Source: a virus
Taxonomy: Duplodnaviria > Caudoviricetes
Length of the DNA: 50,644 nucleotides
Virus record (IMG/VR): IMGVR_UViG_3300035109_000050
Span: 1 to 50,644 of that record
Direction: 5' to 3' (one strand)
The notes below the pieces were generated by a model. The model was not told the origin of the DNA. It saw nothing but the letters and a program-made list of their open reading frames with translations, and ran no database searches. The position numbers and the translations under genes are program-made. This document shows, piece after piece, positions 6,368 through 44,588 of the stretch; the stretch's first letter is position 1, and the number at the start of each line of letters is the position of its first letter.

Positions 6368-6529
6368 CTACCGCGTCGCGCTCGCGGCTTCAGCAAGAGC
6401 CGCGACCAATTTCGCCTTGAAATGCGCGGCGACATCCAGCGCGCCGACGCCGGAATGACGCAAGGCGGCATCGAGAACTTGTTGGAACGCGGATTGTTCT
6501 TCGTCGGTAAGCGTGATCGTGATTTGCAT
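6368..6529 (-). CDS. 53-aa protein after the fibre gene (possible fibre chaperone)
   Basis: MQITITLTDEEQSAFQQVLDAALRHSG...; strong AGGAAGGA RBS. Below the ORF-track size cut-off. Confidence 0.6.
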   Translation of the reverse strand: MQITITLTDEEQSAFQQVLDAALRHSGVGALDVAAHFKAKLVAALAEAASATR

Positions 6530-6543
6530 TTTTAGTTCCTTCC

Positions 6544-8037
6544 TTATGCAACAACCCAGTTGGTGCCATTATAGAGAACAGGGATATGAGACGATCCGCC
6601 GCCAGACGAAACCGTCGCATAAAAAGTAGTGGTGTTGCCGTCTGTGATATAGCAGCGCTGCCCCTCCACCGGCGAGGCGGGGAGCGTCGCGTAGGTGAGT
6701 GGTGTCGTCACAACGCTTCGCGCTTTAAGGTCTCGATAGTTAGAAAGCGTCGTGCTGCCATCGACGACGGCTAGGACGCCAGCGGAGTCGCGGGCAAGTC
6801 CAACATCGTAAGTGCCAGCATTGGAGCCCCATCGCACACGGGACGCCCTCGCCGCGCCATCACGAATAGACAGCACGCTATCTCCGGTCGTGGCCGTGCT
6901 ATCGTAGAATGTCCATATGGAGTCAAACGTATTGGAGCCGAACCCAATATCTCTATTGGCCTCATTCAAAGTCATTATATACGCTGTAGTCGCCGCGTTT
7001 AGGAACCTGATTTGCTTTCCTGTCCCTGGGGATACAACCACATGCCCTATGGTTGAATAGCCAATATTAAGACTATTAATACTGTCCATTAGGAATATTG
7101 GAACAACACCGCCAGCGGCTAACGTGCCGCCAATCCCAGTATTGTTGGAGAATACGATGGACGTTCCGAATGTTTGCGTTCCAGCCCAGGTTTGCGCCAA
7201 GCCAATTCCAGGGATCGTCGCGCTGCTCGACGGGAACGTCATCGTCGTGCTATCGGTTCCTGCTAACGTAAGTATATTGTTAACAGTTAGCGACTTGCCC
7301 GATGCAATAGTTAAACCAGTAACACCGGAGCCAGTATAGGCCGTGGTTTGGTTTGTTCCATCGGGAAATTTCAGCGTAGTAAGCTTCAGCGAACCTGTGA
7401 AATCTCCCGCCGTGCCATTGCCAACCGCGAGACCCGCCGCACCGATGCGCGACAGACTGGTATCCATTACATAAGTTGAAGCCGAGCCGGCCCAACCGAT
7501 GTTGCCGTATTCCTCGACCGACAGCACGTAATTGCCGTTGCGGTCGAGCGCGGTCCAGTGTCGGCCGCTGGCGGCGTTCCATACGCGCGACTGCCATGCC
7601 GTTTGCACGTCGGCCCATAAGGCAAGCATACCCGGATCAAGGGAAGGCGGGTTGATCGCGAGACTGTCGCCAGAACCTGTGTAACTACCTGAAATAATCA
7701 TCCAAGCTTGCGAATAAAAGCCGCCGCCCGCGTCGATATAGATACGCGGCGATCCCGGCGCGAGCCCCCAACCCCCGTCGGGAAATACGCGCAGTATTTT
7801 GCCAGAGGGATCGGATGGCTTGAGGTCAAGAACACTTTGGTTATACGTTTTATTCAATGTCAGGGTCGCGCCCGGCCCAGGAGCGCCACTGGTGAAGGTC
7901 TTGCCTGCGATTGTAAGTTGTTGATTGGTCGCGTCCCAGCTCGTCCCGGCCATCCCTCCGAACGTGCCGGAATTGTTATATTGGATTTGTCCTGAAGAGC
8001 CTTGAGGCTCGGATGGAACAATCATAAAATCCGACAT
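6544..8037 (-). CDS. Tail fibre / receptor-binding-like protein
   Basis: G/S/T-rich beta-type sequence, N-terminal GSSGQIQYNNSGTFGG, C-terminal TYATLPA..EGQRCYITD...YNGTNWVV. TGATG-coupled start; lower GC than the flanks. Confidence 0.75.
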   Translation of the reverse strand: MSDFMIVPSEPQGSSGQIQYNNSGTFGGMAGTSWDATNQQLTIAGKTFTSGAPGPGATLTLNKTYNQSVLDLKPSDPSGKILRVFPDGGWGLAPGSPRIYIDAGGGFYSQAWMIISGSYTGSGDSLAINPPSLDPGMLALWADVQTAWQSRVWNAASGRHWTALDRNGNYVLSVEEYGNIGWAGSASTYVMDTSLSRIGAAGLAVGNGTAGDFTGSLKLTTLKFPDGTNQTTAYTGSGVTGLTIASGKSLTVNNILTLAGTDSTTMTFPSSSATIPGIGLAQTWAGTQTFGTSIVFSNNTGIGGTLAAGGVVPIFLMDSINSLNIGYSTIGHVVVSPGTGKQIRFLNAATTAYIMTLNEANRDIGFGSNTFDSIWTFYDSTATTGDSVLSIRDGAARASRVRWGSNAGTYDVGLARDSAGVLAVVDGSTTLSNYRDLKARSVVTTPLTYATLPASPVEGQRCYITDGNTTTFYATVSSGGGSSHIPVLYNGTNWVVA

Positions 8038-27985: not shown

Positions 27986-28420
27986 TTAGTGCTGACGCGG
28001 CTTGACGCCGATCTCGGCGCAAACAGCGGAAATCGCCGCGTCCCAGGGGATCGCGCCGGGGGTTCCCTGCTGTTGTTCGCCGGCCCCGGCGTCGGCGCCG
28101 ACGCTGCGGTCGAGCCGCGCGATTTCGAGCAGGCGCTCCTTGGTCGTCGGCGCGGGCGGGGCGGCGGCGGCGGGCAGCGGGATCTTGCCGGCCAGCGACG
28201 CGGCGGTCGAAACCGGGACGCCGGCCTGCAGCGCCTCGCCGAACGCGGCGGCGCGCGGGTTTTCCGGGAACAGCGTCGCCATCGCGGCGCCGATCTCGTT
28301 GAAGGCGTCGACGCGGGCCGCGCTGCGCGCGGTCGCCGAGGCCTGGGCGAGCGCCGTGTCGAGCGCCGCCTGGGTGATGACCGGGGTATCCGCGCCGGTC
28401 GCGCCGTTGTTCGCTGTCAT
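27986..28420 (-). CDS. Nested in-frame scaffolding protein (Nu3-like)
   Basis: Internal AGGAG-5nt-ATG (MTANNGATG), in frame with the protease and just after the S49 domain. Confidence 0.65.
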   Translation of the reverse strand: MTANNGATGADTPVITQAALDTALAQASATARSAARVDAFNEIGAAMATLFPENPRAAAFGEALQAGVPVSTAASLAGKIPLPAAAAPPAPTTKERLLEIARLDRSVGADAGAGEQQQGTPGAIPWDAAISAVCAEIGVKPRQH

Positions 28421-29335
28421 GTTTACTCCTAGCGAAAGGCCGCGATTTCGGCCGAATGATTTTAGATAGGCGAAGGCGGCGTCGAGGCCGCCCATTTGGT
28501 CGGCGAGGCCGGCGTCGATCGCGCTCTGGCCGATGAACACCCCGGCCTCGGTGGCGCGCACGGCGTCGGCGCTCATGCCGCGATGCGCGGCGACCGTATC
28601 GACGAACAGCCCGTAGATTTGATCGATGCGCCCCTGGATGCGCGCGCGGGCGTCGTCCGGCAGCGCCGCGTAGGGGTGACCGTCGGCCTTATAGGCGCCG
28701 GCGGTCAGCAGGGTCGGCTTAACGCCGCGCTCCGCCACTTGTTTCGAGCGATCGAGGTGCAGCCAGACGACGCCGATCGAGCCGGCGATCGAGGATTGCT
28801 GGACGAAGATGCGATTGGCGCCGGAGGCGATGGCGTAGGCCGCCGAGGCCGCCTGCGCGTTGACGACGGCGGCGACCGGCTTGGCGATCTCGCGCACCAG
28901 CGCGGCGGTCTCCATCGCGCCATGCGCCTCGCCGCCCGGCGAATCGACGTCGAGCAGAATGGCGCGCACGGCGGGGTCTTCCGCCGCGAGGCGGAGCGAC
29001 TCGGCGAGGCCCTCATAGGAGGTGAGGCCCGACGACGCGCCGATCCAGGCGCCGCGATTGACCAGCTCGCCGCGCAGGCCGATCAGCGCCACGCCGTCCT
29101 TTAGCTTGTAGGGCGTCGCCGTCTCGCCGCTGTCGAGCGCGCGCTCGCGCGGCGCGCCGACGAAGCGCGAGGCGTCGAACCCTCCGGCGCCGATGTTTCG
29201 AGCGCCGGCAAAATCCGCGAGCGGTTCGACGTCGAACCGCTCCGAAAGCGAGCCGGCGATCACCGCCGCCGTGTCCGGCGTCAGCAGCAGCGGCGTGTTG
29301 AACAGCCGCGCGGCGACGCGGGCGACAATCGGCAT
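27986..29335 (-). CDS. S49 prohead protease (lambda gpC-like) with C-terminal scaffold region
   Basis: LFNTPLL, ILLDVDSPGG, AASAAYAIASGA, GSIGV, AGAYKADG.P, AGLAD. Confidence 0.93.
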   Translation of the reverse strand: MPIVARVAARLFNTPLLLTPDTAAVIAGSLSERFDVEPLADFAGARNIGAGGFDASRFVGAPRERALDSGETATPYKLKDGVALIGLRGELVNRGAWIGASSGLTSYEGLAESLRLAAEDPAVRAILLDVDSPGGEAHGAMETAALVREIAKPVAAVVNAQAASAAYAIASGANRIFVQQSSIAGSIGVVWLHLDRSKQVAERGVKPTLLTAGAYKADGHPYAALPDDARARIQGRIDQIYGLFVDTVAAHRGMSADAVRATEAGVFIGQSAIDAGLADQMGGLDAAFAYLKSFGRNRGLSLGVNMTANNGATGADTPVITQAALDTALAQASATARSAARVDAFNEIGAAMATLFPENPRAAAFGEALQAGVPVSTAASLAGKIPLPAAAAPPAPTTKERLLEIARLDRSVGADAGAGEQQQGTPGAIPWDAAISAVCAEIGVKPRQH

Positions 29336-29357: not shown

Positions 29358-31040
29358 TTAGGCGGCTTGTTTCGCGCCGCGCTCTTCGGGGTTCTCGTTG
29401 CGGGCGAATTTGTCGCTTTGCACCGATTGCACCACCGACTGGCGGGTCAGGCCGCGCGCTTTTAGTTCTTCGTCCTCGAACTGCAGTTGGTCGAGGGTAT
29501 CGATGAAATCGAGGCCCTGGTCGGCCTGCTCGATCTCCAGCGTCGAGGTCAGCGTCTCCATCCGCAGGCCGGCCGATTCGGCCTCCTTGACCGGATCGAT
29601 GTAGCCGCGGCCCGGGCCGATGTAGCGGAACTGCGCCCAGGCGGCCGGCATGTCCCAAAAGTCCGGCGCGCCCTTGGGGGCGGCCACATAGCCGCGGTCA
29701 AACGCCTCCTCGAGGACGGCGAGATAAATCGGCGCGACATACTGCTCGGCGAACACCGACTGCATGCGCTTGATCATCCGCCAGACTTCGTTCAGCGCGG
29801 CGCGGGCGCTGGAATAATTGGTCTGCGACCAGTCGTGCGACAACTGCTCGTAGGATATGCCGAGCCGCGAGGCGATCTTGCGCAAAAACGCGGTCTGGAA
29901 CTGGCCGAACGCCGCCGTGCCGCGCGGCGTGCTGTTCATTTTCATGCCCGTGCCGGGCGGCAGCACCGCCGCGCGCACGCCGCCAATCGCATAGGGGTTC
30001 TTCTCGAAGTGATCAATCACTCGGTCGAGGTAATCGGCGCGCACCGTGCCGGCATCGCCGCGACGCGGGCCGGCGAGGCGATCGGCGATCTCGTCGGTCG
30101 GTAGGTCCGATTCGATCGTCGCGGTGAACAGCGAATTGGCGACGGCGTTGGCGAGCTCGGTGTCGCTGTGCTTGCCGAGCATGCGCAGCAGCCCGACCAG
30201 CGCCGCGAACGGCGTCACCGCGCGGGTCTGGTCCTCGCGCTCGGGCTCATAGGCATGGATGAAGATCGGGCGACCCCACGCGGTCTCGCGCTCGATCCGC
30301 TTCCAGGTCATCGCCTCGACGCTGTTCCACCAGTCGGCGAGATGCGCCTCGCGGATGTGATAGGCGACCGGCGTGCCGCCGTCGGCGGCGAATTCGACCC
30401 CGCCGCGCAGATTGGGCCGGGGCGGCATGTTATAGGGGTTGCACAGCCGGTCGGGGTCGATCGGCTGCACGCAAGTGGCGTAGCGCGACCCCTGGGCGAC
30501 GCGGGCCTCGTCGTAGCCGAGGATGGCGCAGGCCTCGGCGCCGGTGGCGATGGTGCGGCCGGCCTGGCGCAGAATGCCGTTGAACGACATGCGGCGGTGG
30601 CGGTCGCAGAACTTGCGCGGATCGCGCGAGAACAGCCGAAATTCGCTGCGCATGACGCGGGCGAGATCGCGCGCGACAGCCGGATCAATGCCGAGCGCGC
30701 GGGCGTCGGGGGTCGGAACGATCTGCCAGCCGTCGCCGACCAGCATGTCGACCAGCCGGTCGACGCCGGCCCCGGCGGAGGGGTCGTTGCGCACCAGGTC
30801 GCGGGCGCGGTCGAGCGACAGCCGCTGCTCATAGAGCGTGCCGGAATCGCCTGACGTGTAGCGCGGAAAATAGCTGGCCAGATCCTGCGTGGTGTGGCCG
30901 GCGGATTTATAGGCCGAGCGGATCGGCGAGCCCATCACGCCAGGGCCGATGACCGTCGCCGGACCCGCCGCCGAGGCCTTGAACTTGCCGGCCCAGCCGG
31001 ACGAGGCCGCCGGGGTCTGGCCGCCGATCTTCGCGAACAT
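29358..31040 (-). CDS. Portal protein, lambda family
   Basis: RARDLVRND, IDPDRLCNP, GGVE....PVAYHI, ER.DQTR.V..FA, GISYEQLS.DWS..NYSSARA, YIDPVKE. Confidence 0.95.
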   Translation of the reverse strand: MFAKIGGQTPAASSGWAGKFKASAAGPATVIGPGVMGSPIRSAYKSAGHTTQDLASYFPRYTSGDSGTLYEQRLSLDRARDLVRNDPSAGAGVDRLVDMLVGDGWQIVPTPDARALGIDPAVARDLARVMRSEFRLFSRDPRKFCDRHRRMSFNGILRQAGRTIATGAEACAILGYDEARVAQGSRYATCVQPIDPDRLCNPYNMPPRPNLRGGVEFAADGGTPVAYHIREAHLADWWNSVEAMTWKRIERETAWGRPIFIHAYEPEREDQTRAVTPFAALVGLLRMLGKHSDTELANAVANSLFTATIESDLPTDEIADRLAGPRRGDAGTVRADYLDRVIDHFEKNPYAIGGVRAAVLPPGTGMKMNSTPRGTAAFGQFQTAFLRKIASRLGISYEQLSHDWSQTNYSSARAALNEVWRMIKRMQSVFAEQYVAPIYLAVLEEAFDRGYVAAPKGAPDFWDMPAAWAQFRYIGPGRGYIDPVKEAESAGLRMETLTSTLEIEQADQGLDFIDTLDQLQFEDEELKARGLTRQSVVQSVQSDKFARNENPEERGAKQAA

Positions 31041-31054
31041 TCAGCCGATCCCGG

Positions 31055-31303
31055 TTAAAACGTAAATCCGACGCCGCTGGGGCGGCCCCGGCCGGCGATC
31101 TGGTTTTCGAGACGGCCGATATAGGCGCGCAGCTTGTCGGCGTCGGCGATGCGATATTTCGTCATATAGCCGTCGGCGACGATCTCGACGACGGCGGCGC
31201 CGGTCATCAGGTCCTGATAGGCCTGCCGCGCGTCGATCAGCCAGCCCTGCAAGGTGGCTAGCGGCGTTTGCGGGACGTTGGCCCAGCCTTCGGAATAGCT
31301 CAT
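31055..31303 (-). CDS. gpW-like head completion protein
   Basis: L.DARQAY.DLMTG..VV......Y..AD..KLRAYI.RLE.QI; upstream of the portal gene. Confidence 0.85.
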   Translation of the reverse strand: MSYSEGWANVPQTPLATLQGWLIDARQAYQDLMTGAAVVEIVADGYMTKYRIADADKLRAYIGRLENQIAGRGRPSGVGFTF

Positions 31304-31329
31304 CGGGCGCGTTCCAATGTCGAAAGCGT

Positions 31330-32301
31330 GGCGGGCGACGGGCTTGGCCCCTACGGTCTTACCGTCCTCAATGAGTGCTGGCGGCCTCGCGAGCCGGACC
31401 AGATCGCCCTGGGTATTTCTGAACGGGAGCGCCTAGCGCCTCTTGGGTGGTCGTCGCCCGTGGACGCTAGGCATACCGGCATCGTTTCCGGCTTTCCGGC
31501 CTTCGTTGTTCTGGATTAACGCCCCGGCCCGGCGCACCGTCTGGTGAATGAACCCGCGGCTGCATTTTCGGCTGCCCGCGACTGGACCCGTGACCACTGA
31601 GAATGCGTCGTCACCGACCATTGGCTTTCGAGCGGGCCGGGCGCTAACCGGCTTTCCGCAATCCCCGGTGCTAGGCCCGCGCACCGTAGCGCCTATCGCG
31701 CCCCGGATTTTGCAAAGCCGTTGATTTCAGCCGTTGAAGATACGGGGACCATAACCGCGTGTCTGCTTTCCACGCCGCCGCTCGAAACTTGGTTGCCCAT
31801 TTGGGCTAATTTTCGCGCTTGCGGCCTCCTGTGGGAGCGCCGGCGCGCGGGTTCTTCGCTTTCGCTCGCCGGGAGAAAACCCGAAAGCTCCCGGGCCGCT
31901 AGGAACCGGCTTCACGGTCCTGCGCAAAGTTGTGGCACTCTCTCCACCCGTCACCGCGCGGCCGGGCCTGCAAGGCCTTGCGGTTCACCCATCTACGACC
32001 CCCGGCTGGAGGAGACCCTTAATCCCTCTAATGGTCTCATTGTCGCTTTACCGCCGCCGATTTCCGCGAGGGCGGTCATCGTTGAGCGTAGGGAGACAAA
32101 AGCTCGCTCGAAACTTCGCTCGCGACCCATTCGCCGCGAGCAGGCGTCAACCGCGTGACGCGCGCCTACTCCCAACCCTGTCCGGCTTTCCCCTCGTGGT
32201 CGGGCCGGCTTTGCCTTCGGTTGGTTTCGCTCTGGGATTCACGAAAAAGCGCCGGCTTGTCCGATTGCTTCCCTGTCGAAGGCGCGGCGATGACGCCCGC
32301 C
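31330..32301 (-). ncRNA. Candidate giant structured ncRNA (~970 nt) with embedded tRNA-like domain
   Basis: 1.07-kb gap in an otherwise gapless operon. Terminal helix 32294-32301/31330-31337. Nested helices 31961-31968/31526-31533, 31846-31854/31550-31558 and 31778-31787/31626-31635. Many local hairpins and GAAA-type motifs. Confidence 0.7.
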
Positions 32302-32375
32302 CCTCTTATCGATCGGACCGTGTTTGCGCTGCTGGCCGGCCAGATCAGCGGGAGGCCGAGGGGCTGGGAAAGGCG

Positions 32376-34418
32376 TTAGTCTTGGGCGTTCAACGCGGCG
32401 AGCCGCGCGAACGGGTCGCGCCGCTCGGGCGGTTTCTCGGGCTCTCGCGGCGGCGCCGGCGGCCTCGCGGCTTCGGGCTCAGCGGCGTCCTGCGCCAGCC
32501 GCGGCGCGAACAGCCCGTCGGCGATGGCCTCTTGCGGCATGCCGCGCCGCTTGGCGAGCAGCGCCCATTCGTCGTCGGTCGTCGACGACAGGCCGAGATA
32601 TTCGGCCAGCGCCATGTTGTAAATCCGCGCATCCAACAGATGGTTGTCGCGCTCGCTCGACGTGATCTTCCAGATCCGGCGCGGCCGGCCGCGATAGGTC
32701 TCGGTGGCGAGATATTCCGCCGTGATCTGGCGAAAATAGTTTTCGTCGAGCCAGTCCGGGAAGTGGCAATAGCCGCCGGGGTCCTCGGCCTGTCCGGAAC
32801 GCCGGCCCAGCTTGCCGAGATCGGCGTAGAACGCGCCCTTGAGCGGCCAGGTGCCGATCGGCCACAGCTTGACGCCCTTCTTGACCTTCTGCCCGGCGAG
32901 ATTGATGTCGACCAGGCTCGGCGTGCCGATCGCCGGCTTGCCCCAGCCGTCGCGGCCGTCGATCGCCAGCACCGTGTCCTGGCCGGTGTCGGGATGGAGC
33001 CGCTGGTTGGAGCGGACCCAGGCGTAGACGATATGGCTGCGATAGCCGGAATCCACCGCCAGCGCGTCGAGCCGGCGCGTCCCGCCGAACGCGTCGGGGA
33101 AGTCGCGGTCGAGCGTGGCGCTTTTCAGCTTTTCGAATGCCTCGCCGTCGACCGATTCGGTCGAGCCGTCACAGTAGAACGCGTCGATGGTCCAGGTCTC
33201 GCGGTTCGGCGCGATGGCGATGATCTCGCACCAGATGCCGCGCATCTGCACGTCGGCGGCCGCGACCAGCATCAGGCCGCGCGCGGGGATGTGACCCTTG
33301 CGGAGCCCTTCCTCGCGCCGCTCCATCAGACGCGCCCAGTCCGGCGCGTCGCCCTTGAACAGGTGCGGCAGGCCGAGCGTCAGGTTGGAGAAGTCCTTGA
33401 GGCCGGTTTCGCCCTTCTTCTTGAGCTTGAGCCAATCCTCGGCGATGGCCTCGTAGCTCATCATCAGCGAGATGAAGGCGTCGATGTGGAACCCAGGATG
33501 ACGGTCGGGCCCCGATGCGGTTGGGCGCCACTCGCCGGCGCGGATCATCGCGACGCGGGCGAGATCGTCGATCACCCCGCCGCAGGCCTGGCAGACGTAG
33601 TGCGAGCGCGCCGGATTGGCCTCGTCGACGACGAGATGGCGGAACTCATGGACAAAATATTCGCCGCATTGCGGGCAGGGACAGTGCCAGAACCGCATGT
33701 CGGAGCGGCGAAAGCTGCGGTCGATCCGGCAATGGCCGGGGGCGTCGCCGAGCGGGTCGCCGGAATCGACCTCCGGGGTCGATATTTCGAGGATTTTCCA
33801 GTTGCGGCGACGGCGGAACGCGGTGAAACGGCCGAAATACAAGGTTTCCGGATCGCCGAAGCCGGGGATGTCGTCCCATTTCGATAATTCGTCCTTGACG
33901 CCCTTCTTGGCGGTCTTGGACGAGAGGTCCATCACGGTGTTGGCGTTGCCGAGCCACAGCCGGCCGCGCGAAAACACCTTTTCGTAGGTTGTCGAGCCGG
34001 TCGCTGAGCGCGAGGTCTGCGGCTCGATGACGACGCGGCCCGCGCGCTTTTGCCAGGCGTCGATCAGCGGCTGCAGCTTGCCGCTGTTGAGGTCGCGCAG
34101 CGCGTCGATGCCGGGGACGGCGTAGAGCGTATTGGCCGGCTCGCGATCGGCGATGTAGAGGCACCAGCCGAGCGCCAGGATCGACGCGCCGGACTGCTGC
34201 GATTTGCGCACCGTGACCAGGTTGCTGGGGTGGTCGTCGCCGAGGCAGTCGGCGATCTCGGTGAGGTAGGGCGCGCCCTTGCGGTTCCACAGTTGGCCGG
34301 CTTGCGGGCCGTCGACCAGTTCGAGGTTTTGCTCCAGCCACAGCGACAGCGGCTGCGGCGGGAGCGGCTTGAGGCGCTCGGCCAGCGCGTCGAGCACGGC
34401 AGCGGCGCCGGCGCTCAT
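32376..34418 (-). CDS. terL: Terminase large subunit (lambda gpA family)
   Basis: PYLTEI.D.L, VRKSQQSGAS (Walker A), KDE, ISTP, CPCPQCGE, GFHID, AAADVQ, AVDSGY, NHLLD. Confidence 0.95.
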   Translation of the reverse strand: MSAGAAAVLDALAERLKPLPPQPLSLWLEQNLELVDGPQAGQLWNRKGAPYLTEIADCLGDDHPSNLVTVRKSQQSGASILALGWCLYIADREPANTLYAVPGIDALRDLNSGKLQPLIDAWQKRAGRVVIEPQTSRSATGSTTYEKVFSRGRLWLGNANTVMDLSSKTAKKGVKDELSKWDDIPGFGDPETLYFGRFTAFRRRRNWKILEISTPEVDSGDPLGDAPGHCRIDRSFRRSDMRFWHCPCPQCGEYFVHEFRHLVVDEANPARSHYVCQACGGVIDDLARVAMIRAGEWRPTASGPDRHPGFHIDAFISLMMSYEAIAEDWLKLKKKGETGLKDFSNLTLGLPHLFKGDAPDWARLMERREEGLRKGHIPARGLMLVAAADVQMRGIWCEIIAIAPNRETWTIDAFYCDGSTESVDGEAFEKLKSATLDRDFPDAFGGTRRLDALAVDSGYRSHIVYAWVRSNQRLHPDTGQDTVLAIDGRDGWGKPAIGTPSLVDINLAGQKVKKGVKLWPIGTWPLKGAFYADLGKLGRRSGQAEDPGGYCHFPDWLDENYFRQITAEYLATETYRGRPRRIWKITSSERDNHLLDARIYNMALAEYLGLSSTTDDEWALLAKRRGMPQEAIADGLFAPRLAQDAAEPEAARPPAPPREPEKPPERRDPFARLAALNAQD

Positions 34419-35032
34419 TGCGTGGTTTTGGGCGCGCTTTCGACCAGGCCGGCGCGCATCATCTCGGCCTCTCCGGCAAGCGCCGCGGCGATCTCGGCGA
34501 GGACGGTCGCGCCGAGCTTTTTAAGCGCCGTGGCGAGCCCGCGTCCCCCATCGCGGGCGACGACGGCGGCGAGATCGTCGGCGTGGTCGTCGAGATGGTC
34601 AAGCGCGTCCTGAATCTTGGCGGCGGCGCGGTCGTAGCCCTCGGCGACGGCGGCGGTGTCGATCAGCCGGCCCTTGATCTGGTCGAGCTCGATGCGGCGA
34701 CGCTCGGTCTCGATCCAGGTCTTTTGGCGGAGCGCTTCGTCATAGGTCTCGGAGGAGTCGCCGCCGCTGTTTTGGGCCTCGGCGCGGCGCGGGGCCTGCG
34801 CCTTGGATGGATCGTCGTAGCGGCCGCGCAGCGTGTCGTATTCGGCCACGTTGAAACGAGCGACGCGGCCCTGGCTGTCAAGCTCGACGGTCAGCCCATG
34901 CTGCTCGCGAAACCGTTTGACCCGGACCGAGACCACCGGCTTCGACACGCCGTCGCGCGTGGCCACGTCGGCGATCGTCAGCATCACGGCGCGGGGGCTG
35001 GCGTTAGCGCCGTTAGGGGCTTCCGTTAGCAT
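34415..35032 (-). CDS. terS: Terminase small subunit (Nu1-like)
   Basis: N-terminal HTH (TIADVATRDGVSKPVVS), IELDQIKGRLID; ATGA overlap with terL. True start may be the ATG at 34984. Confidence 0.8.
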   Translation of the reverse strand: MLTEAPNGANASPRAVMLTIADVATRDGVSKPVVSVRVKRFREQHGLTVELDSQGRVARFNVAEYDTLRGRYDDPSKAQAPRRAEAQNSGGDSSETYDEALRQKTWIETERRRIELDQIKGRLIDTAAVAEGYDRAAAKIQDALDHLDDHADDLAAVVARDGGRGLATALKKLGATVLAEIAAALAGEAEMMRAGLVESAPKTTQ

Positions 35033-36838: not shown

Positions 36839-38473
36839 TTAGTCATGATCGCCCCCATTTTCGGCGTCTTCGTTCCACTCGACCGCTTGCCCCAACGCGC
36901 GCTGAAATTCGTCGCGCGCGTCTTCCAGCGAGGGGAAGCGCCAGCAATTGACCCGCTTCAGCACCGTCACCGGGCGCCCGTCGAAGCCCTCTTCCTCGAC
37001 ATCCTCGGTGGCGCGCACGACCTTCAGCGCCGGCAGCAGGCGCCGCATCCGCATCCCGAATTCCGTTTCGCCGGAGCGCCGCCGCACCCCCTGTTCCTCG
37101 GTGGTGCGGGAATAATCGCGATAGAGCGTGCGGATCGGGATTGGCTGGGTCCGCCATCCAATCGCCCGATGGGTCTGCGAGCCGTCCATCAGCCGCCCGA
37201 GCCACCACGCCGCCAACGGATCGAGCGAGCGCACCTTTTGCTCCAGCAGCGCGCCAGTCTTCGGGATATTGCGCAGGTTCGGCGCGTCGCTCGCGTCGAG
37301 ATCGACCGCCAACAAATCGGCCAGCAGCGCCTCGCGGCCGCCGCTGTTCATCTCGGCGTCCATCGCGCGGAAAAACCCGTGATCTTCCTTATTGCCCTCG
37401 CCGACGTCGAGCACGCAAAAGCGCCGCTCGTCCATCCCGGCCGGGATGACCCAATCCTCGTTCGACGAGATCAGCAGGCGGATGTAATTGGCCAGCTTGA
37501 TCGGATCGACGCCCTTGGCCTCGATCATTTGCTCCGACGAGGTGATCAGCCCCTTGAGCCGCCCCTCCGCCTGCTTGTCGCCGGCCCAAAACCCTTCGTC
37601 GACCAGCATCAGGATGCACCAGGCCATGTGCGCGTTGAACTGGCCCGTCACCAAATGCGGCGAATCGATCGAGATATAATGCGACGAGAACAGCGAGCCG
37701 ATGATCTCGCCGACCTTGGATTTGCCGGTCCCCATCCGCCCGCGCATCACCAGCGCCGTGCCGATCCGCTCGCGCGGACGCTGGATCAGATGCGCGAACC
37801 AATGCCACACCCATTTGAAAATCACGTCGTCGCCGGCGCAGATATTGGCGCGCAGGTGATCGTGGAACTTGAAATATTTTTCGCTGCGATCTGCCGCGCC
37901 GCGCTGGCGCGGGGTCGGCGGCGCCGGGTCCGGCGTGGCCGAATAGCCGCGCCACAAATTGAAGTAGCCGGGCGTTCCCGGCGCGTTGTCGCGATCGGGG
38001 AAGAACTCTACGCCGTCGAAGGTGCGCCGCCGTTCGGAATTGAGCCACGCGGGCGCGATCTTGCGCGTTTTGCAGACGTCTTCCCACTCGCCGGTGAGGA
38101 TATTTCTTTGCCGCGCGCGATAGCGCTCCGTCTGATTTTGCAAATAGGCCGAGAACGATGTGCGATTGAGAAAACGAACGCGATCGCGCTCCGGCGCGTC
38201 CGCCTTCTCGCGCATGATCACCGCGTCCTTGCCGAGCAGCACGAACGCCCATTCGCGGTTCATCCGGTCGATCAAATCGCCGTAGCCGCCATCGTCCGGA
38301 CCGCCATGCGCGTCATCCGGCGGCGGCGGATCGTCGGGCGGCGGAGCGTTGCCGCCGCCTTTGCCGCGAGAGGAAGACTTCCGCTTTTTTTCGGCGTCCT
38401 TCTCTAGCTCCGCGCGCGGCGAAAAAACGATAACCGTGGCGCTCTCGACCGCCTTGACGATATCGTCGGTCAT
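36839..38473 (-). CDS. SF3/D5-like primase-associated helicase (DUF5906-like)
   Basis: FNLWRG, LIQRP.E.IGTALVM.G.MGTGKS (Walker A), MLVDE (Walker B), LKGLIT, ISSN, ERRF. Confidence 0.9.
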   Translation of the reverse strand: MTDDIVKAVESATVIVFSPRAELEKDAEKKRKSSSRGKGGGNAPPPDDPPPPDDAHGGPDDGGYGDLIDRMNREWAFVLLGKDAVIMREKADAPERDRVRFLNRTSFSAYLQNQTERYRARQRNILTGEWEDVCKTRKIAPAWLNSERRRTFDGVEFFPDRDNAPGTPGYFNLWRGYSATPDPAPPTPRQRGAADRSEKYFKFHDHLRANICAGDDVIFKWVWHWFAHLIQRPRERIGTALVMRGRMGTGKSKVGEIIGSLFSSHYISIDSPHLVTGQFNAHMAWCILMLVDEGFWAGDKQAEGRLKGLITSSEQMIEAKGVDPIKLANYIRLLISSNEDWVIPAGMDERRFCVLDVGEGNKEDHGFFRAMDAEMNSGGREALLADLLAVDLDASDAPNLRNIPKTGALLEQKVRSLDPLAAWWLGRLMDGSQTHRAIGWRTQPIPIRTLYRDYSRTTEEQGVRRRSGETEFGMRMRRLLPALKVVRATEDVEEEGFDGRPVTVLKRVNCWRFPSLEDARDEFQRALGQAVEWNEDAENGGDHD

Positions 38474-38877
38474 GCGCCGCGCGCCTCCTGTTTGGCGATC
38501 AGCGCGACGATGGTCGAATTGCAAAGCGCCATCGGCGCCGTCGCCGCGTAGACGCCATTAGCCCCGCACGCATAATCCGCACCCACGCGCGGATAGACAT
38601 TGGCGAACGCGCCGCAAGCATCGCTTCGCATCAACCAGTGGTGACGCGGCAGCGCGAAATTGAACAGCGCGATCGCGTCGCCTTCCTCGCGGGAAAATTC
38701 CAGCGGCTCGCGCCACGCGCCGGCCTCGCGCCACAGCGCGGCGTATTCCGGCCAAAACCTGCCGCCGGCGATCGCATCGAACAGCGCACGATCGATCTCC
38801 GCGCAGCCAGAATCGTCGCGGATCAGCATCAGCCGCGCGGCGCGCAGTTTCGGCAGGGAAAATCTCGGACCATTCAT
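38470..38877 (-). CDS. Phage hypothetical protein (ABA-sandwich-like)
   Basis: EIDRAL..AI, FSR..GDAIAL....LP..W, AATAPMALC pattern; coupled to both neighbours. Confidence 0.5.
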   Translation of the reverse strand: MNGPRFSLPKLRAARLMLIRDDSGCAEIDRALFDAIAGGRFWPEYAALWREAGAWREPLEFSREEGDAIALFNFALPRHHWLMRSDACGAFANVYPRVGADYACGANGVYAATAPMALCNSTIVALIAKQEARGA

Positions 38878-38878
38878 C

Positions 38879-39370
38879 TCACACGCCCTCCGCCATGAAC
38901 GGCCGCCGCGCGCGCGGACGCCATTTCGTCGCCGCCGGCCGGAACGCCAGCGCCGCATGCGCGCGGCAATAGGACGCCTCGCCAAACTTCGCCGCGCCGC
39001 AAAAGCGAAAAGTTTCCAAATCGCGCGGGTCGCCGAGCGGCCAGCGGCAATGATTTTCGCGCGCCGCGAACAGCGTCACGCCGCCGATCGGCGCGGGCGC
39101 GTCCACGGCGACAGCGACGACAATCGCGCGCGCCTCATCCAGCGAGCGCGAAACTTCCGCGATTTTTGGCGGAGCGAGCGCCTTCGCGACGCGGGCGCTG
39201 ACGCGCGGCTTTCGCGCATGCGACCCGTCGTTGAGCCCCATCCGCTCGATCTTGCCGATCACCGCGTTGCGCGTGACGCCCGCGCCGAGCTCGGCGGCGA
39301 TCTTCGCGCCCGAAAACCCGTCGGCGTATAGCTTCCGCGGCCGCGCGACGCGCTCGTCGGTCCAGCTCAT
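38879..39370 (-). CDS. gcrA: GcrA-family cell-cycle regulator
   Basis: MSWTDERV...KL.ADG.S...IAAELG.GVTRNAVIGK..R.GL and CRWPLGDP....FRFCG.....SYC..H. Confidence 0.92.
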   Translation of the reverse strand: MSWTDERVARPRKLYADGFSGAKIAAELGAGVTRNAVIGKIERMGLNDGSHARKPRVSARVAKALAPPKIAEVSRSLDEARAIVVAVAVDAPAPIGGVTLFAARENHCRWPLGDPRDLETFRFCGAAKFGEASYCRAHAALAFRPAATKWRPRARRPFMAEGV

Positions 39371-40590
39371 TCCGCCGCGCTCCTCTGCTCGCCCGCCAGC
39401 AGCATGTCGTTAAAATCCATTCCCGGCGCGGCCATCGCGATCCGGACGCCCATCTCGGGATAGGCGCGCGAAAACCGCTTGGCGGCGCGCCGCAGCGCCA
39501 TGCCCGTCGTGAAGGCGTCGCTGTCGCCGTCGCCGAGCAGATAAATTTCGCGCACGCTCGAAGGGACAGGGATCACCGGCCACGGCTCGGCGTCCGGAAT
39601 ATCATCGCCCGGCACGCGCACCGTATATTCGCGCCCGGCCTTGTTGATCGCCTTCAGCGTCGGATGCGCGACCGAGCCCGCCGCCTTGCCGGCGATATTG
39701 CCGAGATTGACCGACGAGCGAAATTCGCTTCCCTCGAGCAAGGGCGAACGGCCGCGCGAAAGCGCCTCGCGCATCGACAGCACGGTCTCGATTCCCTCGC
39801 CGAGAAACAGCCGGACCGGCGCGTCGGCCGCCCGCGCCAGCATGATCGACGCGCCCTTCCACGACCCCCGCGTCTTCTTGGCGTCGGCGATCTCGCCGGT
39901 TAAGGGGTCGACGATCTCCGCCTTGCCCTTCGGCCTGGCGAGGTCGAGATAGGTCAGATGCGCGCCGGCGAAACGGCCGTCGGGGCCGACCATCGCCGCG
40001 ATGACAGCCGGCCCGGTGTGAATGACCTTGCCGTTCGGCCACAGCGCGTTCCACAACGCCGCGCGCGGCATGAATTTCAGCCGCGCGCCGTCCGGCAATG
40101 TCAGCCCGCGCAGGCGCAGATAATCCTCGACCGGCGTGCCGCGCGCGGCGCGCGCCGACCGCCACAGATCATAGGCGCGCCGCCGTTCCGCCTCGCGATA
40201 TCGGTTGTATTCGGCGGCGGACCTCTCCTGTTCGGCGCGCGACTCGTCGAGACGTCGCGCGACAGCCGCCTCGCGCGCCGCGCGCTCCTCGTCCGATTCG
40301 CGCCGGTCGCGATCCGGCGCGGCGCGGCCCAGCACTTCCTCGCAGGCGCCGAGAAAATCCAACCCCTTGACATGCTGGGCCAGCGCGATCGCGTCGCCGC
40401 CGGCGCCCGAGGCGCGGCACAGCCAAAGGTTTTTCTTGGCGTTGACCGCGAAACGGTCGGTCCCGCCGCAGCACGGGCAAGGTCCGCCCTGTTCGTCGCG
40501 CAGCCGCGTGACGCCGAGCCGGCGCGCATAGTCGGCGACGGGCGCCGCCCGCGCCTCGGCGAGGAAATCGTCATGCGCGCGCGAGCTCAT
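39367..40590 (-). CDS. DNA primase (Zn-binding domain + Toprim)
   Basis: GPCPCCGGTDRF...W.CR...GGDAI.L, YLR.RGL, HLTYL, LGEGIET.LS, LLGDGD, DFND. Confidence 0.9.
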   Translation of the reverse strand: MSSRAHDDFLAEARAAPVADYARRLGVTRLRDEQGGPCPCCGGTDRFAVNAKKNLWLCRASGAGGDAIALAQHVKGLDFLGACEEVLGRAAPDRDRRESDEERAAREAAVARRLDESRAEQERSAAEYNRYREAERRRAYDLWRSARAARGTPVEDYLRLRGLTLPDGARLKFMPRAALWNALWPNGKVIHTGPAVIAAMVGPDGRFAGAHLTYLDLARPKGKAEIVDPLTGEIADAKKTRGSWKGASIMLARAADAPVRLFLGEGIETVLSMREALSRGRSPLLEGSEFRSSVNLGNIAGKAAGSVAHPTLKAINKAGREYTVRVPGDDIPDAEPWPVIPVPSSVREIYLLGDGDSDAFTTGMALRRAAKRFSRAYPEMGVRIAMAAPGMDFNDMLLAGEQRSAAE

Positions 40591-44259: not shown

Positions 44260-44503
44260 TTCGGAGACTCCCGTGCTTTCCTGACGAGGACAGGGGGAAA
44301 GCACGTCACGCTTAGAAGGGACCCGTGGGACGGGCCCCGAACCGACCGACGCGGCGAACGGGGGGCGATCGCCGCGCCGGCCAACCGACGCATCAAGCAA
44401 CGCTACGAAAACACGCCGGGCTTTTATCCACGCGACGCCCGGCCCGCGCTTACAGCCGACGCGAAGAACAACCCCCGCGCGCCGACGGAACCATCACCCT
44501 CCC

Positions 44504-44588
44504 AAAAGCCCCGCGCGACGGGCGCCGCGCGGGGAAGTCAAGGGAGGAAACGCCCAAGGAGGGCTACGAAGCGAGGCAACCTCACTGC
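44504..44588 (-). ncRNA. suhB/MmgR (alpha-r8)-like small RNA
   Basis: Minus strand GCCCTCCTTGGGCG-TTTCCTCCCT-TGACTT, then GC hairpin CCCCGCGCG..CGCGCGGGG and a T run. Matches the recalled MmgR core UUUCCUCCCU. Confidence 0.75.

What the first reader, a model, noticed from the sequence alone, without database searches (positions are those of the whole stretch)
31330..32301. Candidate ~1-kb ornate ncRNA inserted between terL and gpW in the late operon
Seen: the head and tail genes are packed with overlapping start/stop codons, yet 1,072 bp (31304-32375) separate terL from gpW with no credible ORF. On the minus (transcribed) strand the two ends pair (GGCGGGCG 32301-32294 with CGCCCGCC 31337-31330). 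Inside are strictly nested long-range helices: 8 bp 31961-31968/31526-31533, 5 bp 31951-31955/31543-31547, 9 bp 31846-31854/31550-31558, 10 bp 31778-31787/31626-31635. Local hairpins include 31431-31440/31463-31472 and 31869-31875/31888-31894, and GGAAAG/GAAA/GCAA motifs recur. Known: GOLLD and ROOL are large structured ncRNAs found in prophages, and GOLLD can contain a tRNA within it. Inference: this is either a divergent alphaproteobacterial GOLLD-class RNA or a new class of giant phage RNA co-expressed with the packaging genes. Possible roles include packaging/assembly, antitermination or anti-defence.
Basis: partly seen in the sequence, partly recalled or inferred. Interest (0 to 1): 0.92.

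Follow-up and report, generated by a model that had tools for sequence, protein, structure and literature searches.

The report
Mobile cassette of phage RNA modules
The 1-kb gap between two phage packaging genes is a transferable non-coding cassette built from several conserved folded-RNA units, two of them widespread in other phages and sometimes directly beside tRNA genes, rather than one giant GOLLD-like RNA.

Summary
The gap is real. 1,072 nt (31304-32375) separate terL from gpW, with no coding signal on either strand. As a set they are no more than chance, and the region folds no better than shuffles. No Rfam family matches, so GOLLD, ROOL and introns are not supported.

Comparative data give another picture. 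Positions 31328-32372 form a sharply bounded cassette. It recurs at 87% identity in an unrelated phage record, at a different place in that phage's late operon. Thirteen terL relatives that have both genes lack it.

At least five stretches of the cassette are separate folded modules that occur on their own, in other orders, in other phages:
- Module B is in at least 120 IMG/VR contigs and in named Pseudomonas and Ochrobactrum phages.
- Module C is in 71 contigs and shows covariation.
- Modules E, A and D are rarer.

B and C sometimes directly abut tRNA genes. The function is untested. My best guess is discrete small RNAs released from the late transcript.

The parts
31328..32372 (-). Whole non-coding cassette. 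It starts 4 nt after the terL stop and ends 25 nt before the gpW ATG.
   Evidence: The same unit is present at 87% identity in virus record G791, query 4-1048, with unrelated flanks. Contigs of runs X2 and X3 match exactly 31328-31790 and 31939-32372 and then run on unlike the window.
32240..32372 (-). Segment G, the 5' part of the cassette. The boundaries are approximate.
   Evidence: About 66 nt at its start are identical in the window and G791. No other homologue was found. The 22-nt pattern scan gave only G791's own record (L277) and one chance match.
32146..32236 (-). Module E: GAGCGAAA, helix, GGCAAA, hairpin, helix', GAGUAGGCG.
   Evidence: nhmmer hit at 32236-32146. The pattern occurs in 12 IMG/VR contigs. 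The 6-bp helix covaries as CCAACC/GGTTGG, GGAACC/GGTTCC, CGAAGC/GCTTCG, GCAACC/GGTTGC and CGAACC/GGTTCG. 9 of 13 distinct instances are fully paired in the fixed register.
32023..32145 (-). Segment H, a run of local hairpins. The boundaries are approximate.
   Evidence: Only G791 is homologous. Its changes fall in loops or turn G.U into G-C, for example in the hairpin GCTCGCGGC..GTCGCGAGC and the stem GAGACC..GGTCTC.
31888..32022 (-). Module A, core GUCGUAGAUGGGUGAACCGCAAGGCCUUGCAGGCCCGG.
   Evidence: nhmmer hit at 32022-31888. Homologues are L203/G620, between portal and S49 protease after a C module, and G791. The distal hairpin differs compensatorily among the three: GTGG/CCAC, GCCG/CGGC, GTCG/CGGC.
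31794..31869 (-). Module D, three short hairpins.
   Evidence: nhmmer hit at 31869-31794. Homologues are L064 and G791. Compensatory hairpins are GCCC/GGGC, GGCC/GGCC and GCTC/GAGC, and CTCC/GGAG against CTTC/GAAG.
31626..31787 (-). Module B. Closing stem P1 is 31787-31778 with 31635-31626. The 5' box hairpin GCGUG-GAAAGCAGA-CACGC is at 31776-31758. A variable core follows, then the 3' box hairpin GCCGG-UUAGCGC-CCGGC at 31652-31637.
   Evidence: In 75 distinct instances the inner 8 bp of P1 are 96.2% paired, against 54.0% with shuffled partners. Complete copies are in Ochrobactrum phage POI1126 and in Pseudomonas phages Persinger, PotUPM1 and Orimi01.
31420..31625 (-).
Evidence: Only G791 is homologous, with about 12 changes in about 200 nt. 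The 20-nt pattern scan of metagenome contigs gave 3 chance matches.
31330..31419 (-). Module C: a 5' tail AAUACCC, then a four-helix unit closed by GGGCGA/UCGCCC.
   Evidence: Covariance model R1 scores 87.5 bits, with a single copy in the window. There are 83 matches, 77 distinct. 99.6% of cells are paired and 6 of 15 pairs carry compensatory changes. 0 of 500 shuffles reach the observed score. Two nearly invariant U.G pairs fix the strand.
32105..32116 (-). 12-nt direct repeat AAGTTTCGAGCG. The second copy is at 31779-31790.
   Evidence: Located. A contig of run X4 joins 31780 to 32107, with 10 letters fitting either side. That is a variant lacking the 326 nt between the repeats, which hold part of H plus A and D.
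32376..34418 (-). terL, the upstream flank (not part of the cassette).
   Evidence: Pfam GpA_ATPase 1.4e-43 and GpA_nuclease 2.3e-60. It is full length against its relatives.
31055..31303 (-). gpW head-tail joining gene, the downstream flank (not part of the cassette).
   Evidence: Pfam gpW 2.6e-11.

Best explanation
Positions 31328-32372 (minus strand) are a horizontally exchanged, non-coding cassette inserted into the late operon. It is a string of separate structured-RNA domains rather than one giant fold. At least five (E, A, D, B, C) have independent homologues, and three further segments (G, H, F) probably belong to it.

Shown:
- The boundaries of the cassette and its second copy in an unrelated phage.
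- The separate occurrence and covariation of modules B, C and E.
- The absence of coding signal.
- No consensus sigma-70 promoter or intrinsic terminator inside it on the gene strand.

Inferred: the cassette is transcribed as part of the late polycistronic RNA. Each domain has its own closing stem that brings its two ends together. In B and C this gives a cloverleaf-like layout of a closing stem plus several hairpins. I infer that the domains are cut out as discrete, nuclease-resistant small RNAs. The cutting enzymes would be the same ones that mature tRNAs (RNase P, RNase Z, RNase E), because in other phages B and C start 0-5 nt after an encoded tRNA CCA end or end a few nt before a tRNA.

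The released RNAs would then act through their invariant loops (B: GAAAGCAGA and AGUAGCGN) on a protein partner, for example as a decoy or cofactor during late infection. The target is unknown.
For: Cassette as a unit:
- G791 carries it at 87% identity over 1,045 nt. There it lies between two small genes downstream of the portal, S78 protease and HK97-type capsid genes, with unrelated flanks.
- Runs X2 and X3 show the same second context.
- Among 13 terL relatives with both genes located, 11 have terL and gpW at most 91 nt apart or overlapping, and 2 (L003, L020) have 339 nt.

Modules stand alone and change order:
- C then E then the next gene in L251 and L209.
- Portal stop, then C, then A, then S49 protease in L075/L203.
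- C alone between tail sheath and tail tube in L047.
- Unit loss between 12-nt repeats in run X4.

Structure:
- B's P1 is 96.2% paired against 54.0% with shuffled partners, with all four Watson-Crick pair types at positions 4-9 in 75 distinct copies.
- B's P4 covaries in phage Persinger, GCAGG/CCTGC.
- C statistics are, and E's helix.

tRNA link:
- An encoded tRNA CCA end is followed directly by B in L099 and L106, and by C in L220 and L254. C is followed 8 nt later by a tRNA in L061.
- In Ochrobactrum phage POI1126, B lies between tRNA-Met and tRNA-Gln, with 3 nt before the latter.
- In phage Persinger, B is followed by an intrinsic terminator, as for a discrete RNA end.

Context and strand:
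- B's neighbouring genes are unrelated to one another. The largest cluster is 3 of 78 downstream and 2 of 87 upstream, as expected of a self-contained RNA.
- Strand: two nearly invariant U.G pairs in C. C is co-oriented with its downstream gene in 47 of 47 classified cases.
Against: - There are no expression data. No RNA run holds the sequence, so transcription, processing and stability are all inferred.
- Direct tRNA adjacency is rare. In the viral loci 3 of 121 B boxes lie within 13 nt of a tRNA, and 3 of 71 C cores within 25 nt. Two further cases were seen in genome loci (L066 for B, L061 for C). Some of these may only reflect prophage ends at tRNA integration sites.
- The window itself has no tRNA.
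- C's strict placement upstream of a co-oriented gene fits a cis-acting element at least as well as a released RNA. 19 of 53 downstream genes fall in one cluster, whose representative is a head-tail adaptor.
- 50 of 121 B boxes lacked a 3' box under my pattern. Some are variants like Persinger's; others may be fragments.
- Segments G, H and F make up about 45% of the cassette and have only one homologue. The substitution test on the whole cassette is marginal: 18 predicted pairs broken against 23.8 expected (P=0.047), and 3 compensatory changes against 0.6 (P=0.025).
- That the whole unit stays intact between two phages could instead mean that the domains work together.
Confidence: 0.45

Rival explanations
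1. The modules are cis-acting intercistronic elements of the late mRNA. They would act as folded 'punctuation' that sets segmental mRNA stability, or that controls translation of the next gene (here gpW, elsewhere head-tail adaptor genes). They would not be released as functional small RNAs.
For: - C has a co-oriented downstream gene in 47 of 47 classified cases.
- The median distance from C's core to the next start is 147 nt, and from the upstream stop to the core 64.5 nt.
- 19 of 53 downstream genes form one cluster, whose representative is a head-tail adaptor (phrog_195). The upstream genes include major head proteins.
- In the window and in G791 the cassette ends 25-27 nt before the next start codon.
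- C's 5' tail (ACCC-GAGA-GGG) could compete with its closing stem, as in a switch.
Against: - B has no consistent neighbour. It occurs after int with its own terminator, beside repressor genes, and inside a tRNA cluster.
- A simple stabiliser would not need invariant loop sequences across alpha- and gammaproteobacterial phages.
- Eight stacked elements before one small gene is excessive for control of that gene.
Confidence: 0.25
2. The whole ~1,045-nt cassette is one large multi-domain RNA. This would be a new class of giant phage RNA, functionally comparable to GOLLD or ROOL, whose domains have also been reused singly elsewhere.
For: - The entire unit, in the same module order, is conserved at 87% identity between two phages whose flanking genes are unrelated.
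- No terminator or promoter was found inside it on the gene strand.
- Its composition is purine- and A-rich with many GNRA-like loops.
Against: - No Rfam match.
- No folding signal.
- The terminal helix is excluded by C's own stem.
- The modules occur alone and in other orders.
- Natural variants drop or swap internal units.
- 2 of 9 pairs of the 9-bp helix are broken in G791.
Confidence: 0.12
3. The cassette is a selfish or neutral insertion. It would be mobile non-coding DNA, MITE-like or moved by illegitimate recombination, that has accumulated common phage hairpin elements. It would contribute nothing to this phage.
For: - It is absent from all 13 terL relatives in which both genes were located.
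- Its borders are sharp in two contexts, with a short TTCCCAG repeat at the G791 junction.
- It carries an internal 12-nt repeat at which a deletion variant is joined.
Against: - There is a single copy in the window.
- No full-length copy was found in the 401 plus 401 Hyphomicrobiales genomes sampled.
- It has no long terminal inverted repeats and no consistent target duplication.
- The modules are under structural selection.
Confidence: 0.1
4. The elements work at the DNA level, as recombination, packaging or replication sites that form hairpins in single-stranded DNA.
For: B lies next to the integrase gene in phage Persinger, and directly next to tRNA genes, where attachment sites often lie.
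Against: - Two nearly invariant U.G pairs in C (74 of 75 and 76 of 77) would be A.C mismatches on the other strand.
- The orientation is fixed relative to genes.
- The positions, between terL and gpW, sheath and tube, and portal and protease, do not fit cos, pac, att or ori sites.
- The window's cassette has no integrase nearby.
Confidence: 0.03

Closest known systems
GOLLD and ROOL large ornate RNAs (Rfam families; accession numbers not checked here)
   Same: They are large non-coding stretches in phages or prophages, with many hairpins and an association with tRNA genes. I saw GOLLD only in the search listing and the start of the abstract of bioRxiv 10.1101/2024.12.08.627333.
   Different: There is no covariance-model match. 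The conserved parts here are short, self-closed units that also occur singly and in other orders. No single covarying global fold was found.
Phage tRNA gene clusters that also hold small stable RNAs of unknown function (phage T4 'species 1 and 2' RNAs; recalled, no paper read)
   Same: Folded small RNAs sit head to tail with tRNAs on one strand and are presumably matured with them. POI1126 has tRNA-Met, then B, then tRNA-Gln. tRNA-CCA|B and tRNA-CCA|C junctions are.
   Different: The window's cassette has no tRNA and lies inside the head-gene operon. No sequence relation to the T4 RNAs was tested.
Variable ncRNA arrays of UG27 reverse-transcriptase systems in prophages (bioRxiv 10.64898/2026.09.22.753630; passages read)
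   Same: It is a phage-borne array of structured ncRNA units with gain and loss of single units.
   Different: Those units are repeats of one fold and template cDNA for an adjacent reverse transcriptase. Here the units are different folds, and neither phage record has an RVT_1 match.
Clusters of self-cleaving ribozymes (hammerhead, twister, HDV-like and others) in phage-like regions (recalled from Weinberg and colleagues, 2015; not read here)
   Same: Several compact, self-closed RNA motifs lie side by side in intergenic regions of phage operons. Their boundaries are exact and sit next to other RNAs.
   Different: No Rfam ribozyme model matches at E<=10. Self-cleavage was not tested.
Candidate structured RNAs of IMG/VR phages (Fremin, Bhatt and Kyrpides 2023, PMC10690425; passages read)
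   Same: That study used the same data source and looked for the same kind of object. It reports 8,495 covarying motifs in viral contigs, including tRNA-like ones and motifs upstream of terminase genes.
   Different: I cannot tell whether B, C or E are among them. The passages I read do not describe a multi-module cassette.

Membership tests
GOLLD RNA | Match to the Rfam covariance model | tested here: not met
   No match at gathering score over the window. No match at E<=10 on 31000-32700 or on 31320-31800.
GOLLD RNA | tRNA gene inside or beside the RNA (seen in some members; recalled) | tested here: not met
   ARAGORN finds 0 tRNA genes in the window. Modules B and C do abut tRNAs in other phages.
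ROOL RNA | Match to the Rfam covariance model | tested here: not met
   No match.
Group I or group II intron | Match to the Rfam intron models, and interruption of a host gene | tested here: not met
   No model match at E<=10. terL aligns to relatives up to residue 677-678 of 680, and gpW from residue 3-9, so neither gene is split.
Known self-cleaving ribozyme classes in Rfam | Match to a covariance model | tested here: not met
   No match at E<=10.
Known self-cleaving ribozyme classes in Rfam | Self-cleavage of the transcript | not testable with these tools
   This needs an in-vitro transcription and cleavage assay.
tRNA or tmRNA | Cloverleaf with canonical D and T loops and an anticodon, as detected by ARAGORN or the Rfam tRNA model | tested here: not met
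   No gene in the window. B and C share only the topology: a closing stem plus several hairpins.
RT-templated ncRNA array (UG27 type) | Adjacent reverse transcriptase gene | tested here: not met
   PF00078 is found in 0 of 2 records (G000, G791). The control rings in 3 of 14 genomes.
MITE or insertion sequence | Terminal inverted repeats, target duplication and many copies per genome | tested here: not met
   One copy in the window. No full-length copy in the 401 plus 401 genomes sampled. No consistent flanking repeats in the two contexts.
Protein-coding gene or pseudogene | Open frame, codon periodicity, or a family match | tested here: not met
Module B family (defined here) | Covarying closing stem, the 5' hairpin GCGUG-GAAAGCAGA-CACGC and the 3' hairpin GCCGG-AGUAGCGN-CCGGC | tested here: met
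   The window copy is at 31787-31626 and has all three features.
Module C family (model R1, defined here) | Full-length match to R1 | tested here: met
   87.5 bits, E=1.4e-17, model positions 1-92 of 92. The window copy was one of the 13 seed sequences, so this match is by construction. The 70 or more viral matches are independent of the seed.

The most novel reading that the evidence does not exclude
The cassette is a new kind of phage accessory locus: a transferable 'operon of RNAs'. Eight different tRNA-shaped or ribozyme-like domains would be made from the late transcript and released by tRNA-processing enzymes or by self-cleavage. At least two of them (B and C) would be undescribed, widespread phage RNA classes with a dedicated function such as anti-defence decoys or assembly cofactors. 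Alternatively, all eight fold together into a new giant RNA particle.
Probability: 0.2. Interest if true: 0.85.

Novelty: new variant of a known kind. Interest (0 to 1): 0.62.

Why it matters
Two of the modules are strongly covarying RNA motifs that Rfam 15 does not hold. They occur in many phages, including cultivable Pseudomonas and Ochrobactrum phages, so their function can be tested directly at the bench. A cassette that strings such modules together and moves between unrelated phages suggests that phages trade RNA 'morons' much as they trade accessory protein genes. If the modules are released like tRNAs or cleave themselves, this would add new RNA classes and a new way of organising phage late transcripts. 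If they are only intercistronic stabilisers, the finding is a useful but ordinary addition to catalogues of phage RNA motifs. The motifs may already be listed in the supplements of PMC10690425, which I could not open.

Tried and rejected
- **Rfam.** Nothing in the gap at the gathering score or at E<=10. In 15 related loci only tRNAs and a weak mmgR hit appeared.
- **Whole-gap DNA searches.** No match in GenBank phages. Only short module matches, and nothing full length, in 5 named prophage hosts and in the 401 plus 401 Hyphomicrobiales genomes sampled.
- **Coding tests.** Negative.
- **Promoter and terminator scan.** Nothing on the minus strand.
- **tRNA scan of the window.** None.
- **Metagenome scan.** A 20-nt piece of segment F gave 3 hits, all chance matches inside what look like coding regions. 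That scan was the only one allowed. A viral scan with a 22-nt piece of segment G gave only G791's own record (L277) and one chance match.
- **Sequencing runs.** 4 soil metagenome DNA runs were listed and no RNA holder, so nothing can be said about expression.
- **RNAalifold on the two full-length copies.** It produced a global fold that contradicts the covarying stems of B and C, so I did not use it.
- **My first gene caller.** It placed many elements inside spurious GC-rich ORFs. The second is still crude: 40 of 122 B and 16 of 71 C elements fall 'inside an ORF' and were dropped from the orientation counts.
- **L073 as a homologue of module A.** Rejected as a weak, probably coding, match.
- **L057 and L067 as homologues of module C.** Dropped for poor alignment.
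- **Reverse transcriptase.** None in either phage record.
- **Model R1 on the four named B-bearing phages.** No C module.
- **Literature.** Two searches found no description of these motifs. That is weak evidence, because the supplements were closed.
- **Closed or misdirected tools.** Relatives cannot be drawn for a virus record.
Full report
**Setting.** The window is a 50,644-bp virus record estimated 97% complete. On the minus strand it carries a lambda-type head module. A probable small terminase gene lies at 34415-35032. terL (GpA ATPase and nuclease domains) is at 32376-34418, gpW at 31055-31303, a lambda-family portal at 29358-31040 and an S49 protease at 27986-29335. Its terL relatives are prophages of Hyphomicrobiales: Methylosinus, Chelatococcus, Rhodomicrobium and Beijerinckiaceae. 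The genes of this operon are closely packed, apart from the 1,072 nt between terL and gpW.

**Checking the observation.**
- The gap has stops in all frames.
- Ten stop-to-stop frames gave no Pfam or PHROG match better than E=0.056.
- Codon-phase GC amplitude is 0.02-0.16 in the gap against 0.28-0.48 in the flanks. The gap is truly non-coding.
- As a set they are not unusual. Inverted 8-mers number 27 against 21.5 +/- 6.4 in 300 shuffles, and 10-mers 1 against 1.8. Coding flanks of the same length have more.
- The minimum free energy of 991 nt gives z = -0.92, and 4 of 20 shuffles fold at least as well.
- 24 sliding windows in the gap average z = +0.10, against -0.37 for 43 flank windows.
- Rfam 15 gives nothing in the gap at the gathering score, at E<=10 on 1.7 kb, or at E<=10 on a 481-nt slice. 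ARAGORN finds no tRNA.
- Membership of GOLLD, ROOL, an intron class or a known ribozyme class is therefore not supported.

**The gap is an insertion with sharp borders.**
- In 13 terL relatives where both genes could be located, 11 have terL and gpW at most 91 nt apart or overlapping. Two (L003, L020) have 339 nt of unrelated sequence. My choice of start codons is rough, so the negative distances are not exact.
- Laying public contigs on the region showed a 15.5-kb contig in two soil metagenomes that matches 31328-31790 and 31939-32372. At both ends it runs on into sequence unlike the window.
- The same unit was then found in an IMG/VR record, G791. It matches at 87% identity over query positions 4-1048.
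- G791 is a different phage. The unit lies downstream of its portal, S78 protease and HK97-type capsid genes, between two small paralogous genes, and upstream of the tail sheath and tape-measure genes.
- In both phages the shared sequence starts just after the upstream stop codon (4 nt in the window, 26 nt in G791). It ends 25-27 nt before the next start codon.
- The cassette is therefore 31328-32372.

**The cassette is made of modules.** BLAST of the gap against 401 plus 401 sampled Hyphomicrobiales genomes found no full-length copy. It did find recurring short matches, in 12 and 17 genomes at E<=0.001. Following these gave five units.

*Module C (31419-31330).*
- It was first seen in about 15 prophages.
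- Its core pattern is in 71 IMG/VR contigs.
- Covariance model R1, built from 13 copies, finds one copy in the window. It finds 83 matches (77 distinct) in the loci searched.
- On the model-fitted alignment 99.6% of cells pair and 6 of 15 pairs show compensatory change. No shuffle of 500 reaches the covariation score, and slid partners give at most 7 compensatory cells against 54.
- Two cautions apply. The alignment is fitted to the model. The search pattern also fixed most of helices 2 and 3, so the real signal is in the closing stem (for example CG 55, AU 8, GC 6, UA 6 at one pair).
- Two nearly invariant U.G pairs show that the fold belongs to the strand of the genes.

*Module B (31787-31626).*
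- 71 of 121 boxes have a 3' box under my pattern.
- In 75 distinct copies the eight inner pairs of the closing stem are 96.2% paired. With shuffled partners the figure is 54.0% (maximum 59.8% in 500 trials). All four Watson-Crick pair types occur at positions 4-9.

*Module E (32236-32146).* It is in 12 IMG/VR contigs. It has a 6-bp helix with at least five different complementary versions.

*Modules A (32022-31888) and D (31869-31794).* Each has only two or three homologues, with compensatory hairpins.

*Segments G, H and F.* Together they make up about 45% of the cassette, and G791 is their only homologue. Changes there mostly fall in loops or give wobble pairs. The formal test is weak: 18 predicted pairs broken against 23.8 expected (P=0.047), and 3 compensatory changes against 0.6 (P=0.025), measured on a single-sequence fold.

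**The modules are autonomous.**
- In L251 and L209, C is followed at once by E and then by a gene start.
- In L075/L203, C follows the portal stop codon. A comes about 130 nt later, just before the S49 protease gene.
- In L047, C stands alone between the tail sheath and tail tube genes.
- In the window the order is E, A, D, B, C.
- Run X4 holds a variant that joins 31780 to 32107 at a 12-nt direct repeat, removing A and D.
- In G791 the stretch 31791-31938 is replaced by diverged versions of the same units.
One of its pairs becomes A.C in G791.
- These facts favour a string of separate domains over one nested 1-kb fold.
- Against that, the complete unit keeps its order between two phages. A joint function is therefore not excluded.

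**Context of the modules elsewhere.**
- C has a co-oriented downstream gene in 47 of 47 cases that my crude gene calls could classify. Of the 71 copies, 16 fell inside a called ORF and 8 lacked a flanking gene.
- 19 of 53 downstream proteins form one cluster, whose representative matches a head-tail adaptor. Upstream clusters include major head proteins. gpW is also a head-tail joining protein.
- B has no consistent neighbour. The largest cluster is 3 of 78 downstream and 2 of 87 upstream.
- B occurs in contigs of 35-72% GC and in named phages:
  - In Pseudomonas phage Persinger it lies between the integrase stop codon and an intrinsic terminator.
  - In PotUPM1 and Orimi01 it lies beside the repressor gene.
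  - In Ochrobactrum phage POI1126 it lies between tRNA-Met and tRNA-Gln, 3 nt before the latter.
- In those records the place is unannotated or lies under a hypothetical protein.
- In the viral loci, 3 of 121 B boxes lie within 13 nt of a tRNA on the same strand, and 3 of 71 C cores within 25 nt. Two further cases were seen in genome loci (L066 for B, L061 for C).
- At four of these junctions the encoded CCA end is followed directly by the module.
- One bacterial CRISPR array carries a spacer that contains the B 5' box.

**How it most likely works.**
- Shown: a mobile non-coding cassette, and separate covarying RNA folds on the gene strand. The consensus scan found no sigma-70-type promoter or intrinsic terminator inside the cassette on that strand.
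- Inferred: the cassette is read through as part of the late transcript. Each domain has a closing stem that brings its ends together and several hairpins around a junction. This layout resembles a cloverleaf, though without tRNA loops.
- With the direct tRNA junctions, B's terminator in Persinger and B's indifference to its neighbours, I consider release as discrete stable small RNAs by tRNA-type processing the most likely course (0.45). The invariant loops would then serve as contact sites for an unknown protein.
- The main rival (0.25) is a purely cis role in mRNA stability or translation of the next gene. This fits C's strict placement well.
- Other rivals are a single giant RNA (0.12), a selfish or neutral insertion (0.10) and a DNA-level site (0.03).
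- No RNA data exist for this sequence. No RNA run was listed, so all steps after transcription are untested.

**Comparison with what is known.**
- The nearest known things are listed under Closest known systems.
- From the two papers I read only passages: PMC10690425 and bioRxiv 10.64898/2026.09.22.753630.
- GOLLD cryo-EM work and Weinberg 2017 were seen only in a search listing.
- Phage T4 stable RNAs, ribozyme clusters and HK022 put RNA are recalled, not read.
- Neither phage record has a reverse transcriptase, so the UG27-type array is excluded.
- I found no description of B, C or E in two literature searches or in Rfam 15.
- The IMG/VR motif catalogue of PMC10690425 keeps its list in supplements that were closed. 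Prior listing of these motifs cannot be ruled out.

**Verdict.**
The gap and the complementary segments are real.
- The GOLLD-class reading is not supported.
- What is there is a new variant of a known kind: a transferable cassette of phage structured-RNA modules, at least two of them widespread and absent from Rfam 15.
- Interest 0.62.

Noticed in passing
window 44496-44571 (-): Full-length match to the Rfam suhB/mmgR sRNA family (44.4 bits, gathering score 41, E=5.7e-06) inside the phage record. This is a host-type alphaproteobacterial sRNA carried by a phage. A weak mmgR-like hit (36 bits) also lies about 640 nt from a module B copy in genome locus L065.
   Followed up: no
L068 (genome G414), around 1440-1800: A CRISPR array with the repeat GTTTCGATCCACGCTCCCGTGCGGGGAGCGAC holds a spacer that begins with the 24-nt module B 5' box. 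A Cas1-like frame lies nearby (not checked). Hosts therefore target B-bearing elements.
   Followed up: partly
window 38882-39370 (-): The phage encodes a GcrA-family cell-cycle regulator (Pfam 1.7e-33), next to a primase-like gene (39370-40590) and a DUF5906 protein (36842-38524).
   Followed up: no
L066 174-803 (+), genome G537: A NusG-family paralogue lies about 600 nt upstream of a tRNA that is followed directly by a module B copy.
   Followed up: no
L279 7906-8151 and 6572-6793 (-), record G791: The two small genes that flank the cassette in the second phage are paralogues. They share 38% identity over 34 residues, and both match phrog_38773. The insertion site may lie within a small gene duplication.
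   Followed up: partly
L003 8029-8367 and L020 1400-1738: Two close terL relatives (75-77% identity) have a different, unrelated 339-nt non-coding stretch at the same terL-gpW junction. The site seems to be a hot spot for insertions.
   Followed up: partly
L285 (Ochrobactrum phage POI1126, record 6400-7000): Two tRNA genes (Met, Gln) and a module B copy lie in a stretch of about 590 nt that carries no annotation in the GenBank record.
   Followed up: partly
window 31399-31419 (-) and other C copies: The conserved 5' tail of module C (ACCC-GAGA-GGG) could form a small GNRA-type hairpin that competes with the closing stem. This hints at two alternative folds.
   Followed up: no
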